A DNA stretch of 64,000 bases, taken from assembly GCF_036507355.1 (NCBI RefSeq), contig NZ_AP027877.1. One strand, written 5' to 3'. Every line of letters begins with the position of its first letter. Position 1 is the first letter of the stretch. The position numbers are program-made. This DNA is from Escherichia coli. Its GTDB lineage: Bacteria > Pseudomonadota > Gammaproteobacteria > Enterobacterales > Enterobacteriaceae. Positions 37,401-43,400 of the stretch are shown here, piece after piece.

Positions 37401-40400
37401 CTGACTGTTCTTTATTAGCGGAAGAATCCGGACCGTACTTCTTTATCCAGGCGTAAAGGCTGTGGGTGGTGATATCGAGACGTGTTGCAACGCTGGCAAC
37501 AGAATAACCGCGATCAACAACCTGTTTGACTGCTTCAATTTTAAACTCTTCGGGATAACGCTTACCGCTCATGGGCACCTCTCTTTAAGCCATCTTAAAT
37601 GACTCTGAGGTGTCTGTTAAACCCGTGGCGATTCAGGAAGAGTTCGAAATACGCAGCGAAATTGTTGGAATTCAAATTAGTTGATCTTGACGTTCTTAAG
37701 CGAACATACTTCTTTTTTGCAGACCGTTATCTGGCAGATGTAGTGAAGTTTGAAAACCTATGTGGTGATTTAGAGCATACATCGCAGAAGGCTAGGGATG
37801 AAAAAATTAAGGCCATGCAATTAAAGACAAACGACCCTGAAATTCAGTTAGGTGTTTGTATTTTTGTTTGTTTCAGGTTGCGAAACAACCTTTTTCATGG
37901 ACCAAAATGGCGTTATTTGCTTGATGGGCAAGAGGATTTGCTCTTAATTGCCGGAAATTTTATACATTCTATTCTATTACAGGTGCCTAGTAGAGATGGC
38001 TGGGAATTCAAGAATATTTTAACTTCTACTGATTAGCTTTGATTTTCCATAATCAACCCGCCATAATCATGTCATCGGAGCCTGAACAACTCCGGTGACT
38101 TCTGCGCTTTGAGGGGACTCAAAGTGCAAACGACAATCAGAACACCTTTCAACCAGTCACAGATGCAGAAATGCACCTGCAATATCTTGCATCCAACGTT
38201 TGACCTCTGCGGAGGTGAAGCGTGAACCTCCCACAAGACGGCATCAAATTACATCGCGGTAACTTCACTGCTATCGGTCAGCAGATCCAGCCTTATCTGG
38301 AGGAAGGCAAATGCTTTCGCATGGTGCTTAAACCGTGGCGGGAGAGACGCAGTCTTTCCCAGAATGCACTCAGCCACATGTGGTACAGCGAAATCAGTGA
38401 ATACCTCATCAGCAGGGGTAAAACGTTCGCCACTCCAGATTGGGTAAAAGATGCTCTCAAACACACTTATCTCGGTTATGAAACCAAAGAACTGGTTGAT
38501 GTCGTAACCGGTGAGATCACCACTATCCAGTCGTTACGCCATACCTCCGATCTTGATACCGGAGAGATGTATATCTTCCTGTGTAAGGTTGAAGCCTGGG
38601 CGGTGAATATTGACTGCCACCTGACTATTCCGCAGAGCTGCGAGTTCCAGCTGCTGCGCGACAAGCAGGAGGCGTAATGGCTACACCGCTTATTCGTGTC
38701 ATGAACGGACACATCTACAAAGTACCAAATCGTCGTAAGCGTAACCCTGAGCTGAAGCCATCCGAAATACCAACTCTGCTCGGATATACCGCCAGCCTGG
38801 TTGATAAAAAATGGTTGCGACTGGCAGCAAGGAGGAATCATGGCTGATTTGAGAAAAGCAGCGCGTGGTCGGGAATGCCAGGTAAGAATCCCTGGCGTAT
38901 GTAATAGCAATTCTGAAACGTCTGTACTGGCACATATCCGGCTGGCTGGATTGTGCGGTACCGGTATCAAACCGCCAGACCTGATTGCCACCATCGCATG
39001 TTCTGCCTATCACGACGAAATCGACCGCCGCACACATTTTGTCGATGCTGAGTATGCAAAAGAATGCGCGCTGGAAGGTATGGCGAGAACACAGGTTATC
39101 TGGCTGAAAGAGGGGGTTATTAAGGCGTGAATACTTACAGCATCACATTACCCTGGCCTCCGAGCAATAATCGCTATTACCGCCATAATCGCGGGCGCAC
39201 GCACATCAGCGCAGAGGGGCAGGCATACCGCGATAACGTCGCCCGAATCATTAAAAACGCAATGCTGGATATCGGCCTGGCTATTCCTGTGAAAATCCGC
39301 ATTGAGTGTCACATGCCGGATCGCCGTCGCCGTGACCTGGATAATCTGCAAAAAGCTGCTTTTGACGCACTTACCAAAGCAGGTTTCTGGCTGGATGATG
39401 CTCAGGTCGTTGATTACCGCGTTGTGAAGATGCCGGTTGTCAAAGGTGGAAAGCTGGAACTGACCATCACTGAACTGGGAGATGAATGATGTTTGAGTTT
39501 TATACGGCAGAACTTCTTCGCCACCGCTGGATGCGCCTGCGCTTATATCGTTTCCCCGGTTCTGTTTTGACCGATTACCGAATACTGAGGAATTACGCCA
39601 AAACCCTGACAGGAGCAGGAGTATGAAGTCAGAGATAACAATCAACTAATACTGTTTTGTTGATTTTTGCTTGTAATTGGCGTTCTGGTCTGATTTTTGT
39701 GGAGTAAGTTGATGCGTGATATTCAGATGGTTCTTGAGCGTTGGGGAGCGTGGGCGGCTAATAATCATGAAGATGTGACCTGGTCGTCCATTGCCGCCGG
39801 TTTTAAGGGATTAATTCCTTCAAAAGTAAAATCTCGCCCACAATGTTGTGACGATGACGCGATGATCATTTGCGGGTGCATGGCCCGTCTGAAAAAGAAC
39901 AACAGCGATTTGCATGATTTATTGGTGGACTATTATGTCGGCGGCATGACTTTTATGGCGCTTGCACGTAAGCATGGGCGATCTGATTGTTGGGTTGGCA
40001 GGATGCTCCAGAAAGCTGAGGGCGTAGTGGAGGGTATGCTGATGGTGTTGGATCTCCGATTGGAGATGGATGCTGATTGTTCGAAATAATTAAAGGAAAA
40101 GTTGCTGTCTGATTGTCATTAGTCTAACATTTTAAATGTTGGAATCGCAACGTAGTTATTATCATATAACAGCTTGTTTCCTGATTTAGCCAGCCTCCCC
40201 AAAGGCTGGTTTTTTTCTAATAAGTATTATTTCGGGTAGGGATTTTATTGTTTAACCCATAATAATTCATTGACATTGAATCCCAACTTTTGAGCGGTTC
40301 GCACATAGTCTGCTTTTACTTTATCTGGAATAGTTGGGGTCCTTGCCAGAATCCATAGGTATTCTCTGTTCGGACCACTGACAAGAGCATACTTATACTC

Positions 40401-43400
40401 ATCATCCAGTTTGATTACATTATAGCCACCATAGAAGGGGCCAAAAAACGAAACCTTCAATGCTGCAGTTTTAGTATCTCCAGTAAAGTATGCTTTACCT
40501 TCGCTCTCGCTCCATTTATTTTTCGTTGGATCGTATCCACGGTTAAGTACACGAATCCCTCCGTCGTTCCGTTTTCCATAAGTAGCGCTGACCTGTTCCA
40601 GATCACGTTCGAACCGGTTCTCGAGGCGAGCTATTTCATACCATTTTCCGAGGTAGCGGTTGGCGTCAAAATTTGTAATCGGCTGCACACCTTTAGGTGG
40701 TGTCGGGGCCTTACATGCTATAAGAGTGAAAGAGAGTGCAATGCCAGTCAACACAGGCCATAACTTCATAATAAATCCTGTACTTTTGATAGTTGAGAGT
40801 AAGTATGAAAGATAGATGATTACGACCGATCACTTAAAGAACTTTCATACTATATTAGGAATAGTCCATAACAGAAAAATTGTCAGTGATGACGCCAGAA
40901 AGGCAATTTATTCCGTGCACTACACAGTTTATGTGTTAATGAATTAGTCAAGGGGGAGAATATGATAAAAAAACCTGTGATTGGAATCAGCGGTTGTTTG
41001 GCCGGTTCTGCTGTTCGTTTTGATGGTGGTCACAAAAGAGCTGACTTTTTAATGGACAAATTAGTGGAATGGGTAACATTCAGACCAGTATGTCCGGAAA
41101 TGGCTATAGGGCTGCCAGTTCCGCGTCCTGCTCTACGTCTTGTGCGCTCGACGCAAGGAAATATACGGATGTGTTTCAGCCACGACCAGAATGAGGATGT
41201 GACAGAGAGAATGACAGAGTTTAGTCGTTCTTATATGGACAAATTAAAGGATGTATCGGGGTTTGTGGTTTGTGCTAAATCTCCCAGCTGTGGCATGGAG
41301 CGCGTGCGTGTCTATGATGAAAATGGTAATCGAGGTCGTAAAGATGGAGTGGGACTATTTACGAGTACTTTGATGGAAAAGTTTTCCTGGCTACCGGTTG
41401 AAGAGGATGGGCGATTACATGATCCAGTGCTTCGTGAGAATTTTGTTGAAAGAGTTTTTGCTTTGCATGAGCTCAATCACCTTTACAAGGAGAAATTATC
41501 AAGAAGAGAGTTATTAGCTTTTCATAGTCGTTATAAGCTTCAGTTGTTGGCGCATAGTCAGGCAGGCTATAAAGATATGGGACCATTTGTGGCTGCAATA
41601 CACGAGTGGGCGGACCTTGAATCATACTTTGAGGTGTATCGTGATAAGCTGATGGCGATTCTCAGAAAACCTGCATCACGTAAAAATCACACGAATGTGC
41701 TGATGCATATACAGGGGTATTTTAGTAACTACTTAAGTACACGCCAGCGTAAAGAGTTGAGCGAGGTTATACTTAACTATCGTTCTGGCACATTACCTCT
41801 TCTTGCGCCGTTGACTCTGCTGAAGCATTATCTGGGTGAGTATCCTAATGATTACTTGCTTACACAGAATTACTTCGATCCCTATCCGGACGAACTGGCT
41901 CTAAGACTGATGGTAAATTAATTGTATGCGATATCATCCAAAAGGATGAGTTCCTGCATGCAGGATATTTACAATCGTAAAAACTACACTATGATACCCA
42001 GAGTGTCAGTTTGTATAAAAACTCTGTTTACGCTGAAGAAACAATTGAGATGCAACTTAAAGTTGGTAAACATGCCAGTCAAAATATATAATATTATGAT
42101 TCCACGCAGCTATATATAATATAACAGATTGGTTTAATAATTTGTCTTTGTGAGTTAAATACATAATTTTATACTTGTGATGCAATGAAATTTTCCTTAT
42201 TGTTGAACTGGCGAATATTGATTTTCCACCTATACTTACCTGGTGTAACCCCAATGATATCAGGTGGATAATATGCCATACATATGTTCTATCATTTTGG
42301 TGTTGAACTCGTTTGATGTCCGAATTGGTAAAGAAGATATTTTGTTTAAAAAAGGAAGTGCTGTTCTCATTGATTACAATTTAAAAGATTTTTTTTCATC
42401 AAATATAGATCATGTAATGATCGTAGATGTTGAAGAGAAAACAGTTAATGATTTCTTTAAAAGCAACACACTCTCACCTTTTTCTGTAAGAAGGTTTTAT
42501 CCGGCATACTTGATGGTGGAATGTGAAGATTTTTCATTGTTAAAGAACTTGATTGCATGCTTGAATTGTGATGGCAGAACTGTGGATTTTGTTAGAAATC
42601 AAATATCACTTGCATGTCTTGCTATCTTATCTTCAGAGAAAATAGTGCAAAGTTTTTTATTTGGATGTCTTAATAGTTTAGGAAGTAAAGTTAAGGCTAT
42701 TATTCACACGGATATATCTGCAGCATGGAGACTTTGTGATATATCTTCAAGACTGTATCTGAGTGAAAGTCTGTTAAAAAGAAAATTAAAGCACGAAGGC
42801 TTATCATTTAGTAAGTTAATTCTTGAAGAGCGAATGGTGATGGCGGAAAGGTTATTAAGCTACAATTTATATTCTGTTGGAAAAGTTGCTGAGATATGCG
42901 GTTATGAAAACACGTCATATTTTGTGAGTGTTTTCAGAAGATATTTTGGTGTTCCTCCCCATCAATATTCATCAAGATTTTTTTTAGAAAAAGACATGAT
43001 GTAACATGATGCGTTTTAATGATTTTGTAATTTTCGTATTTGATAATTGTATGATGCTTTCAGCTACGCCAGAATAATCGCTGGCGTTTTTCTTTTTGAA
43101 TAGATGTTCAAGCCTTACGCTAATGTAACTTCTATACCTTTCCTCTTCGTTCCGAACCGTGTACACCATCCGTTATTTGCGGAGGTGAGGCTATGAAATC
43201 TATGGATAAGTTAACAACGGGCATTGCCTACGGCACCTCCGCAGGCAGTGCTGGCTACTGGTTTTTACAGTTGCTCGATAAAGTCACGCCCTCACAGTGG
43301 GCAGCAATAGGTGTGCTGGGTAGCCTGGTATTTGGCCTGCTGACGTACCTGACAAACCTTTATTTCAAGATTAAAGAAGATAAGCGCAAGGCTGCGAGAG

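What the first reader, a model, noticed from the sequence alone, without database searches (positions are those of the whole stretch)
40245..40769. Second lipocalin (Blc paralogue) encoded inside the prophage
An intact lipoprotein lipocalin with lipobox and conserved Blc motifs is encoded on the strand opposite to the late genes. A phage-borne copy of an envelope stress lipocalin is a plausible lysogenic conversion or membrane-protection factor.
Basis: partly seen in the sequence, partly recalled or inferred. Interest (0 to 1): 0.4.

Follow-up and report, generated by a model that had tools for sequence, protein, structure and literature searches.

The report
Phage-borne Blc-family lipocalin cargo gene
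An intact outer-membrane lipocalin gene sits in the cargo slot of a decayed lambdoid prophage of E. coli; it is real and kept by selection, but it is common and already listed as a phage cargo gene, so it is ordinary apart from its origin.

Summary
Window 40245-40769 (-) is an uninterrupted 174-aa ORF with a lipoprotein signal peptide (lipobox LIAC). It scores above NCBIfam's Blc cut-off and keeps 51 of 52 family-invariant residues and the whole Blc ligand pocket. It lies antisense to the late operon, just after the Q antiterminator and a tR'-like terminator, which is the classic lambdoid cargo ('moron') slot.

It is not new. The same gene is in 1134 of 5426 complete E. coli genomes and in isolated lambda-like phages annotated 'Lipocalin Blc'. 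Mathieu et al. 2020 listed blc as a moron in over half of their gut lambda phages.

What this work adds:
- It is not a copy of E. coli's own blc (59% identity). It belongs to a second enterobacterial lipocalin lineage, which in Enterobacter, Leclercia, Buttiauxella and Kosakonia sits back-to-back with a MerR regulator and the tRNA 4-thiouridine desulfidase RudS.
- Lipocalin and rudS were captured together and the regulator was lost.
- The gene is under strong purifying selection (dN/dS 0.07) and its upstream region is conserved.
- The window's prophage is a defective remnant without an immunity region.

Expression and benefit remain untested.

The parts
40245..40769 (-). Lipocalin CDS, 174 aa, Blc family, second (MerR-linked) enterobacterial lineage
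   Evidence: ORF. Pfam and NCBIfam matches. PDB Blc matches. Tree and diagnostic residues. Pocket residues 18 of 19 identical to K-12 Blc.
40713..40769 (-). Lipoprotein signal peptide with lipobox L-I-A-C (Cys19 codon at 40713-40715). The +2 residue is Lys, so there is no Asp inner-membrane retention signal.
   Evidence: Regex and translation. The N-terminus is conserved across class II homologues. Outer-membrane sorting is inferred from the Lol +2 rule (established knowledge).
40776..40779 (-). Shine-Dalgarno AGGA, 6 nt before the ATG
   Evidence: Read from the sequence. It aligns with the AAGGAG of chromosomal homologues.
40802..40807 (-). Candidate -10 hexamer CATACT(TA), 32 nt before the ATG. 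It lies at the same offset as the CTACACTTA box shared by K-12 blc and all class I and class II loci.
   Evidence: Upstream comparison. Not mapped experimentally.
40770..40894 (.). Conserved divergent control region between the lipocalin and rudS. It includes element 1 (about 40842-40859), which is homologous to the chromosomal CAATATACTACGAAT block.
   Evidence: 96% identical between the window and 1H12 alleles, against 84-89% at third codon positions (P = 3e-3 to 2e-5). Alignment to chromosomal loci.
40915..40925 (+). blc-type box GTGCACTACAC facing rudS; role unexplained
   Evidence: Motif mapping. Best nhmmer hit in the window, E=0.13. Comparison with other promoters.
40188..40220 (+). tR'-like intrinsic terminator after Q (9-bp stem plus T-run). 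It lies 24 nt beyond the lipocalin stop codon, so the same hairpin falls in the lipocalin 3' end.
   Evidence: Terminator scan. 100% conserved between alleles.
39697..40089 (+). Q antiterminator gene, left border of the cargo slot
   Evidence: Pfam Phage_antitermQ, E=2.5e-51. Annotated as Q in Yu5 and 1H12.
40962..41921 (+). rudS (DUF523/TudS fused to DUF1722), co-captured partner of the lipocalin
   Evidence: Pfam. 73% identical to the RudS in the chromosomal locus L005. The homologue in phage 1H12 (92.2% nucleotide identity) is the tested 'RudS_vir'.
42273..43004 (+). AraC-family regulator gene, third cargo gene, 31.8% GC, of separate origin
   Evidence: Pfam HTH_18 and HTH_AraC. GC content. 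Absent from all chromosomal lipocalin loci.
43193..44345 (+). Lysis cassette (holin essD, lysozyme, Rz-like spanin), right border of the cargo slot
   Evidence: Pfam. Colinear with Yu5 annotation.
35525..55654 (.). Defective lambdoid prophage remnant at tRNA-Arg(CCT) argW. It has an IS3-family insertion (36425-37578), no immunity or early-left region, internal deletions at about 50138 and 51114, and IntS at 54461-55654.
   Evidence: BLAST against the intact relatives Yu5 and LR-51. tRNA. Pfam.

Best explanation
The gene encodes a working outer-membrane lipoprotein of the Blc lipocalin family, carried as cargo (a moron) in the Q-to-lysis junction of lambdoid phages. It was not copied from E. 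coli's own blc. It comes from a second enterobacterial lipocalin lineage that, in Enterobacter, Leclercia, Buttiauxella, Kosakonia and relatives, is transcribed divergently from a MerR/MlrA-like regulator operon containing the tRNA 4-thiouridine desulfidase RudS. The phage captured the lipocalin and rudS together long ago, lost the regulator, and has kept both under purifying selection.

Likely mode of action:
- Transcribed from its own promoter, which has a -10 box homologous to the stress-induced blc promoter, independently of and antisense to late transcription.
- Exported, lipidated at Cys19 and sorted to the outer membrane.
- Uses an unchanged Blc pocket to bind amphipathic lipids (lysophospholipids or fatty acids, possibly tetrapyrroles), giving the carrier cell extra envelope-stress protection. 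E. coli lacks this lineage chromosomally.

Shown here: gene integrity, family and lineage, co-capture, selection, upstream constraint. Inferred: expression, localisation, ligand, benefit.
For: - Integrity and family.
- Lipobox.
- Cargo slot and mobility: the slot is flanked by Q plus a tR'-like terminator and by the holin. The same cassette sits in phages with different virion modules (Yu5 with a sheathed tail, IdasGreatGrand and 1H12 siphoviruses, Qin of E. coli B). Other phages with the same Q and holin carry other cargo there.
- Lineage: the phage protein is 71-82% identical to the MerR-linked lipocalins and 55-63% identical to the frdD-ampC-blc-gdx lineage. It nests inside the MerR-linked clade and agrees with it at 8 of 8 diagnostic positions.
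- Co-capture: the window's RudS is 73% identical to the RudS in L005, in the same relative orientation. 12 chromosomal loci have the order lipocalin, MerR, (TTR), RudS, and Kluyvera has the two genes directly adjacent. The lipocalin is in 1134 genomes and rudS in 1135.
- Age and selection: dS is saturated against chromosomal relatives, GC is 43.6% against 57-59%, and dN/dS is 0.074 between phage alleles (21 synonymous, 6 non-synonymous changes).
- Function retained: 51 of 52 invariant columns and 18 of 19 pocket residues are kept.
- Own regulation: the 125 nt upstream are 96% conserved against 84-89% at neutral sites, and CATACTTA lies at the offset of the family-wide CTACACTTA box.
- Published background: blc was proposed as a lambda moron. 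Blc is stress-induced and binds lysophospholipids and heme.
Against: - No transcript, protein or phenotype data were found for the phage copy.
- The consensus promoter scan found no good sigma-70 site upstream of the gene.
- The profile match of the upstream region to chromosomal loci is weak (E=0.13) and is oriented toward rudS.
- The window allele carries G56D at a Gly that is invariant in all 36 chromosomal homologues, next to pocket residues 53, 54 and 57. This could impair the protein.
- There is no canonical terminator on the gene's own strand.
- The lipocalin can be lost while rudS stays, as in LR-51.
- Even chromosomal Blc has no agreed physiological role.
- The link to the MerR locus is synteny only and holds for 15 of 25 class II loci.
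Confidence: 0.55

Rival explanations
1. The lipocalin is the membrane arm of a two-gene near-UV / photo-oxidative stress module, with RudS repairing the tRNA side. The lipocalin would sequester photo-oxidised lipids, lysolipids or photosensitising tetrapyrroles in the envelope, so that the phage supplies E. coli with a light-stress function that its relatives encode chromosomally.
For: - Class II lipocalins sit divergently from the MerR regulator whose operon contains RudS. In Cedecea, L016 and Klebsiella L021 the operon instead contains an SDR, an amine oxidase, DUF1365, a CFA-synthase-like gene and DUF2878. The CFA-synthase-like (CMAS) gene is the kind of gene called ufaM, furan fatty acid synthase, in the light-inducible Pseudomonas regulon; I did not test whether it is orthologous to ufaM.
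- The RudS paper states that RudS genes lie in MerR/LitR light-responsive operons, names the E. cloacae RudS-MerR pair, and shows that RudS, including the 1H12 phage enzyme, lowers tRNA s4U and lessens UVA growth arrest.
- Blc binds heme and hematoporphyrin, a photosensitiser.
- The lipocalin and rudS co-occur almost perfectly in E. coli.
Against: - No paper in the held library links a Blc-like lipocalin to light regulons.
- Among more distant lipocalin loci only 2 of 44 have a photolyase or cluster gene nearby.
- 10 of 25 class II loci lack these neighbours.
- The MerR regulator is missing from the phage, so any light control is lost.
- The -10 box is shared with the RpoS-type blc promoter of the canonical lineage, which argues for general stress control rather than light control.
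- In E. coli B the lipocalin persists without a functional rudS.
Confidence: 0.2
2. The lipocalin is a passenger with no benefit to host or phage. It persists only because it is physically linked to rudS and to the Q-lysis module.
For: No phenotype is known, and chromosomal blc mutants have a debated role. The gene can be deleted with Q by an IS while rudS remains, as in LR-51. The window allele has G56D at an invariant Gly. The prophage here is decaying.
Against: dN/dS is 0.07-0.10 between alleles with dS about 0.2, and 51 of 52 invariant residues and the pocket are intact. The upstream non-coding region is constrained. The gene stays intact in cryptic prophages where its neighbours are destroyed, such as E. 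coli B Qin with rudS cut by IS3. It is present in 21% of complete genomes.
Confidence: 0.15
3. It is a phage-serving surface factor: a lipoprotein that masks a receptor or excludes superinfecting phages (in the manner of Cor or Llp), or that changes host-gut interaction through lysophosphatidylethanolamine levels.
For: Phage-encoded outer-membrane lipoproteins near the lysis genes commonly act in exclusion or serum resistance (Bor/Iss lie on the same strand in 1H12 and LR-51). Mathieu et al. note that membrane proteins dominate among lambda morons. Chromosomal Blc variants alter gut LPE and host inflammation.
Against: The protein has not diverged in its pocket or invariant core from chromosomal homologues that have no phage role. 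There is no match to known defence or exclusion families in PADLOC. The PHROG family is unannotated. The cassette occurs in phages with different tails, and so different receptors.
Confidence: 0.07

Closest known systems
E. coli outer membrane lipocalin Blc (b4149; PDB 1QWD, 2ACO, 3MBT)
   Same: Same family (above the NCBIfam Blc cut-off). Same length and same lipoprotein signal with Cys19. 62.8% identity over the mature protein. 18 of 19 pocket residues identical. A homologous CTACACTTA-type -10 box at the same offset.
   Different: It is a different lineage: it is not at frdD-ampC-blc-gdx, it is 59% identical overall, it has Ser instead of Cys at residue 131 and seven other diagnostic differences, and it is carried by phages at 43.6% GC.
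Chromosomal 'class II' lipocalins of Enterobacter, Leclercia, Buttiauxella, Kosakonia, Cedecea and Kluyvera (divergent from the MerR - TTR - RudS operon)
   Same: These are the closest relatives (74-82% identity). The rudS neighbour and relative orientation are the same, and there is a shared upstream element.
   Different: The phage version has lost the MerR regulator and the transthyretin-like gene, has drifted to low GC with saturated synonymous sites, and is embedded between Q/tR' and the lysis genes.
The 'blc' moron of gut lambda-like phages (Mathieu et al. 2020; phage 1H12 gp65 'Lipocalin Blc'); PHROG 2809
   Same: It is the same gene in the same cassette and position: 96.6% protein identity to the 1H12 and Lambda_ev copies, and 100% to IdasGreatGrand.
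   Different: Here it sits in a defective remnant at argW rather than in an inducible phage, and it carries the G56D allele.
Lambda Bor / Iss lipoprotein morons
   Same: A small outer-membrane lipoprotein gene beside the lysis cassette, on the strand opposite the late operon, presumed to be expressed from the prophage (the lambda bor biology is from established knowledge).
   Different: It is an unrelated fold and family. Bor/Iss confer serum resistance, whereas the lipocalin's effect is unknown.

Membership tests
Blc / bacterial lipocalin family (Pfam PF08212, NCBIfam NF007786) | Full-length match to the family model above the curated cut-off | tested here: met
   NF007786 scores 314.5 bits against a cut-off of 267 over residues 1-174. 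PF08212 gives E=1.1e-43.
Blc / bacterial lipocalin family | Type II (lipoprotein) signal peptide with a lipobox Cys | tested here: met
   L-I-A-C at residues 16-19. The +2 residue is Lys. Conserved in all homologues.
Blc / bacterial lipocalin family | Conserved lipocalin core and ligand-pocket residues | tested here: met
   51 of 52 invariant columns are kept (the exception is G56D). 18 of 19 pocket residues are identical to K-12 Blc. PDB Blc matches at E about 1e-67.
Blc / bacterial lipocalin family | Outer-membrane localisation and lysophospholipid or fatty-acid binding | not testable with these tools
   Inferred from the lipobox, the +2 rule and pocket conservation only.
Orthologue (or recent copy) of E. 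coli chromosomal blc | Closest relatives are the blc genes at frdD-(ampC)-blc-gdx-ecnB | tested here: not met
   The phage protein is 55-63% identical to that lineage and 71-82% identical to the MerR-linked lineage. The NJ tree and 8 of 8 diagnostic sites place it in the latter.
Phage moron (cargo gene) | Sits between conserved phage modules and is present or absent among otherwise related phages | tested here: met
   It lies between Q/tR' and the holin. Phages Turner, PhiR70_1 and PhiR34_1 share Q and the holin but carry other cargo there, such as OmpD. The cassette is found with different virion modules.
Phage moron (cargo gene) | Own promoter and terminator, independent of phage operons | tested here: inconclusive
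   It is antisense to the late operon, has a constrained upstream region and a homologous -10 box. However, the scan found no consensus sigma-70 promoter, and the only terminator is the tR' hairpin shared with the + strand.
Phage moron (cargo gene) | Expressed from the prophage and beneficial to the host | not testable with these tools
   No data were found in the literature search.
MerR/LitR light-responsive regulon member | Adjacent to and controlled by a MerR/LitR-type regulator together with light-stress genes | tested here: not met
   The phage copy has no MerR gene or remnant. Its chromosomal relatives have the adjacency in 15 of 25 loci, but control by MerR is untested and no publication on it was found.
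Known anti-phage defence or exclusion proteins (PADLOC) | Match to a defence-system model | tested here: not met
   No PADLOC hits for the lipocalin, RudS, the AraC-like protein or two neighbours.

The most novel reading that the evidence does not exclude
Lambdoid phages carry a two-gene stress module, lipocalin plus RudS, lifted from a MerR-controlled enterobacterial locus that E. coli itself lacks. Within it the lipocalin is the envelope arm, handling photo-oxidised lipids, lysolipids or tetrapyrrole photosensitisers, and RudS is the tRNA arm. A fifth of E. coli strains would then owe part of their near-UV / oxidative-stress tolerance, and possibly their gut lysophospholipid output, to prophage cargo.
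Probability: 0.2. Interest if true: 0.5.

Novelty: already known. Interest (0 to 1): 0.2.

Why it matters
Taken at face value the finding is routine: an annotated, widespread cargo gene already named in the literature. Its modest value is evolutionary and practical.
- It shows that E. coli's 'extra' lipocalin is a foreign lineage imported by phages together with an experimentally proven tRNA de-modification enzyme, from a regulator-controlled locus present in neighbouring genera.
- That gives a concrete, testable hypothesis for a protein family (Blc) whose physiological role is still disputed.
- It identifies easy test strains: E. coli B/BL21 has the lipocalin without rudS, and 1H12 and IdasGreatGrand lysogens have both.
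- Chromosomal Blc variants have been tied to gut lysophosphatidylethanolamine levels and inflammation, so a second, phage-borne Blc in 21% of strains is worth controlling for in such studies.

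Tried and rejected
- Recent duplicate of E. 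coli blc: rejected by the tree, the identities and the diagnostic residues.
- Second lipocalin inside the window: none found by tblastn.
- MerR or transthyretin-like gene remnant in the window: none.
- Profile (nhmmer) search with the chromosomal lipocalin-upstream region: the best hit is in the right spacer but weak (E=0.13) and in the rudS orientation, so promoter homology rests on the offset-matched -10 box and on constraint, not on this search.
- Generalising the 'light cluster' neighbourhood to all Blc-like lipocalins: rejected, since only 2 of 44 distant loci have such neighbours.
- Known defence system: no PADLOC hits.
- Expression evidence: searches for the protein accessions and for 'lipocalin' plus 'Qin prophage' found nothing useful.
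- Published link between lipocalins and LitR/MerR light regulons: none found. One search was badly specified and wasted.
- Counting co-occurrence with chromosomal blc by distant blastn: this failed because class I blc is too diverged at the DNA level. That search did show that no native copy of intermediate identity exists.
- Small ORF at 40816-40947 (+) as the reason for spacer conservation: rejected, because the conserved block covers only part of it and the rest is 79% identical.
- Structure prediction: not run. About 63% identity to solved Blc structures makes the fold certain.

Full report
**1. Observation**

The window has an uninterrupted ORF at 40245-40769 on the minus strand (ATG start, 174 aa). 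An AGGA ribosome-binding site lies 6 nt upstream.
- The protein matches Pfam Lipocalin_2 (E=1.1e-43). It scores 314.5 bits on NCBIfam NF007786 'outer membrane lipoprotein Blc', above the curated cut-off of 267, over its full length.
- It matches the solved E. coli Blc structures 3MBT, 1QWD and 2ACO at E about 1e-67.
- Residues 16-19 are a canonical lipobox (LIAC) and the +2 residue is Lys.
- All neighbours are phage genes on the + strand. YbcO-like, RusA and Q lie upstream. A DUF523-DUF1722 gene, an AraC-family gene, holin, lysozyme, Rz-like spanin, terminase and portal lie downstream.

This is not a chance ORF.

**2. Where the window comes from and the state of the prophage**

The window is E. 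coli. It covers evgS-evgA-emrK-emrY, a prophage, IntS, tRNA-Arg(CCT) (55780-55854), yfdC and mlaA. This is the argW attachment site used by KpLE1/CPS-53-type elements.

Compared with the intact relative in strain Yu5, the window's element is a remnant:
- The dsdA-csc-torI flank and the whole early-left, immunity and replication region are missing.
- An IS3-family element sits at 36425-37578.
- The late region is colinear only from 38039 to 50138.
- It then jumps across the major capsid to sheath genes, and again across the baseplate.

'Lysogen' is therefore a loose term here. There is no repressor gene in the window, and the element cannot make particles.

**3. Position of the gene**

Q ends at 40089. 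A strong intrinsic terminator on the + strand follows at 40188-40220, and it is 100% conserved between diverged alleles. By analogy with the lambda pR'-6S-tR' arrangement (established knowledge), this is the tR' that Q-modified polymerase reads through.

The lipocalin stop codon lies 24 nt beyond it, so the gene is antisense to late transcription and needs its own promoter. It is followed by a 192-bp spacer, the DUF523-DUF1722 gene (40962-41921), an AraC-family gene (42273-43004) and the holin (43193).

This Q-to-S junction is the classic cargo site. Phages sharing this Q and holin carry other cargo there, for example OmpD in PhiR70_1 and PhiR34_1.

**4. Already known**

- The cassette covers at least 80% of the 3.9-kb query in 978 of 5426 complete E. 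coli genomes.
- The lipocalin alone is in 1134 genomes and the neighbouring gene in 1135.
- It occurs in isolated phages: IdasGreatGrand (identical protein), and 1H12 and ten records named Lambda_* (Lambda_ev*, Lambda_2E9, Lambda_4B5, Lambda_2G7a) (96.6% protein identity), where it is annotated 'Lipocalin Blc'.
- PHROGs has a full-length family for it (phrog_2809, function unknown).
- Mathieu et al. [quoted passage not shown]

**5. What lineage it is**

The protein is only 59% identical to K-12 Blc over its full length and 62.8% over the mature part. A scan of species genomes returned two enterobacterial groups, and their contexts separate cleanly:
- Loci 55-63% identical to the phage protein lie at frdD-(ampC)-blc-gdx-ecnB, like K-12 blc.
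- Loci 71-82% identical lie elsewhere. Twelve are transcribed divergently from a MerR/MlrA-like regulator. That regulator is followed either by a transthyretin-like gene and a DUF523-DUF1722 gene (Enterobacter soli, E. cloacae, E. asburiae, E. quasihormaechei, Leclercia, Buttiauxella, Kosakonia pseudosacchari and the metagenomic contig L005) or by a cluster of SnoaL, SDR, amine oxidase, DUF1365, CFA-synthase-like and DUF2878 genes (Cedecea, L016). Three more retain part of this arrangement.

Some genomes have both lineages, for example Buttiauxella agrestis and Kosakonia pseudosacchari. In a neighbour-joining tree the phage protein nests within the MerR-linked clade. It agrees with that clade at all 8 class-diagnostic positions, including Ser131 where the canonical lineage has Cys.

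None of these chromosomal loci has Q or lysozyme nearby. E. coli has no native copy of intermediate identity.

**6. Co-capture with rudS**

The window's DUF523-DUF1722 protein is 73% identical to the one in L005, and the lipocalins are 82% identical, in the same relative orientation. The phage arrangement equals the chromosomal one minus the regulator and the transthyretin-like gene. No remnant of either is left. Kluyvera L019 shows the two genes directly adjacent on a chromosome.

The two phage genes share the same GC content (43.6% and 43.3%), whereas the AraC-like gene is 31.8% and has no counterpart in any chromosomal locus.

The neighbour is not hypothetical. The copy from phage 1H12 (92.2% nucleotide identity to the window's gene) was expressed as 'RudS_vir' by Jamontas et al. 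2024 (PMC11417400). Expression of the RudS genes tested there lowered tRNA 4-thiouridine 4.7- to 26-fold. The authors state that E. coli lacks RudS, that RudS lessens UVA-induced growth arrest, and that RudS genes lie in MerR/LitR light-responsive operons. They name the E. cloacae RudS-MerR pair, which is the locus I find next to the class II lipocalin.

**7. Is it maintained?**

- Between the window allele and the 1H12 allele there are 21 synonymous and 6 non-synonymous differences (dS 0.20, dN 0.015, dN/dS 0.074). For rudS the ratio is 0.10.
- Against chromosomal relatives the synonymous sites are saturated, and GC has fallen from 57-59% to 43.6%. The capture is therefore old.
- The protein keeps 51 of 52 columns that are invariant in all 36 chromosomal sequences.
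- It keeps 18 of 19 residues that line the ligand pocket in the Blc-heme structure (PMC8177097). The 19th (K77R) matches the majority residue of both lineages. The two lineages thus share one pocket and differ in context, not in binding site.
- The single departure is G56D, next to pocket residues 53, 54 and 57. It is derived, since the 1H12 and E. coli B alleles keep Gly. It is shared with the plaque-forming phage IdasGreatGrand, and 625 genomes carry alleles at least 99% identical to the window's at the nucleotide level. Its effect is unknown.
- In E. coli B the Qin prophage keeps the lipocalin intact although rudS is cut by IS3. In LR-51 the reverse has happened: the lipocalin and Q are lost to an IS while rudS stays.

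**8. Regulation**

The consensus scan found no good sigma-70 promoter upstream of the gene. Two observations nevertheless argue for a dedicated promoter.
- The 125 nt upstream (40770-40894) are 96% identical between the two alleles. Third codon positions are 84-89% identical and other spacers 65-79% (P between 3e-3 and 2e-5). A small ORF in the spacer does not explain this.
- K-12 blc, all class I loci and all class II loci share a CTACACTTA box 28-33 nt before the ATG. The phage gene has CATACTTA at 32 nt (40802-40807) and aligns in register, including the Shine-Dalgarno sequence.

K-12 blc is induced by starvation and high osmolarity (summarised in PMC8177097). The box resembles the RpoS -10 consensus (my knowledge). 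The phage version lacks the -13 C.

An upstream block homologous to the chromosomal CAATATACTACGAAT element is also retained. A profile search gave only a weak hit (E=0.13) in the rudS orientation, and a blc-type box (GTGCACTACAC, 40915-40925) faces rudS. I could not resolve how the control region was rearranged.

**9. Mechanism**

Most likely (confidence about 0.55 for the whole chain):
- The gene is transcribed from its own stress-type promoter in the prophage state. Antisense late transcription may dampen it after induction, but that is inference.
- The product is lipidated and sent to the outer membrane.
- It binds the same amphipathic ligands as Blc. Published candidates are lysophospholipids at nanomolar affinity, fatty acids, and heme or porphyrins at micromolar affinity.
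- It thereby adds envelope-stress capacity.

Rivals:
- A functionally coupled lipocalin-RudS near-UV/oxidative module (0.2). Synteny and the RudS literature support it. The loss of MerR, the lack of any publication and the absence of the association outside this lineage (2 of 44 loci) weaken it.
- A neutral passenger (0.15), contradicted by the selection data.
- A phage-serving exclusion or host-interaction factor (0.07), with no PADLOC hit and no divergence from chromosomal homologues.

**10. Verdict**

The feature is real and correctly described, but it is common, annotated and already discussed as a lambda moron. Its novelty class is 'already known'. The added points are the lineage assignment, the origin from a MerR-RudS locus, co-capture with rudS, the evidence for selection and promoter constraint, and the defective state of this prophage. 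Interest is low (0.2). The most novel surviving reading, a phage-borne light/oxidative stress module, has a probability of about 0.2.

Noticed in passing
window 40962-41921 (+): The gene next to the lipocalin is a full-length RudS (TudS/DUF523 fused to DUF1722). Its homologue from phage 1H12 was shown to remove tRNA 4-thiouridine, and RudS is reported to lessen UVA growth arrest. E. coli itself has only the stand-alone DUF1722 protein YbgA, so prophages supply this enzyme to about 21% of strains.
   Followed up: yes
window 42273-43004 (+): An AraC-family regulator gene with very low GC (31.8%) is the third cargo gene between Q and the holin. It has no counterpart in the chromosomal lipocalin loci, its PHROG family (phrog_1450) has no function, and its target is unknown. 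From memory only: prophage-encoded AraC-like regulators of acid-resistance genes exist in EHEC, and this prophage sits beside evgAS. I did not test this.
   Followed up: partly
window 40602-40604 (codon 56 of the lipocalin): The window allele has Asp at residue 56, where all 36 chromosomal homologues and the 1H12 and E. coli B alleles have Gly. The residue lies between pocket residues 53, 54 and 57. The phage IdasGreatGrand also has it, and 625 genomes carry alleles at least 99% identical to the window's.
   Followed up: partly
window 40915-40925 (+): A blc-type promoter box (GTGCACTACAC) lies about 37 nt upstream of rudS and faces rudS, not the lipocalin. The window allele reads CTACACA and the 1H12 allele CTACACT. 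The downstream bases resemble the Serratia blc promoter. The history of the control region is unresolved.
   Followed up: partly
window 35525-38040 and 50135-51114: The prophage is a remnant. The emrY flank joins directly to a fragment of phage DNA, an IS3-family element sits at 36425-37578, and two internal deletions remove the capsid-to-sheath genes and the baseplate genes. The dsdA-csc-torI region seen in related strains is absent.
   Followed up: yes
window 53196-54320 (-): A 374-aa Acyl_transf_3 family acyltransferase lies next to the integrase at the argW end of the prophage. This is the usual place for O-antigen-modifying conversion genes. Related strains (LR-51) carry a DUF1919 gene there instead.
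   Followed up: no
L088 (E. coli B-StaR, Qin prophage) 9001-9864: In E. coli B the same lipocalin (97.7% nucleotide identity) is intact in the Qin prophage, while rudS is truncated by IS3 after 147 bp. This gives a natural lipocalin-only strain in a laboratory lineage related to BL21.
   Followed up: partly
L089 (Morganella phage IME1369_01) 4001-4516: An unrelated Morganella phage carries a lipocalin lipoprotein gene (51% identical) between its lysis genes and the terminase, on the same strand as the late genes. This looks like an independent capture of a Blc-like gene by a phage.
   Followed up: no
L004, L016, L021 (Cedecea, MAG, Klebsiella sp.): In some Enterobacterales the class II lipocalin faces a MerR-led cluster of SnoaL, SDR, amine oxidase, DUF1365, CFA-synthase-like and DUF2878 genes. 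The CFA-synthase-like gene is the kind called ufaM (furan fatty acid synthase) in the light-inducible Pseudomonas regulon. No paper in the held library mentions the lipocalin as part of it.
   Followed up: partly
window 44333-44758 (+) and 37599-38036 (+): A DUF6979 gene follows the spanin, and a 145-aa ORF with no Pfam or PADLOC match follows the IS element. Neither was studied further.
   Followed up: no
H112-H117 (E. coli plasmids): The distant-mode search found lipocalin genes 67-73% identical at the DNA level at 364 places on E. coli plasmids. They are probably the blc that travels with plasmid-borne ampC genes. They are unrelated to the phage copies.
   Followed up: no
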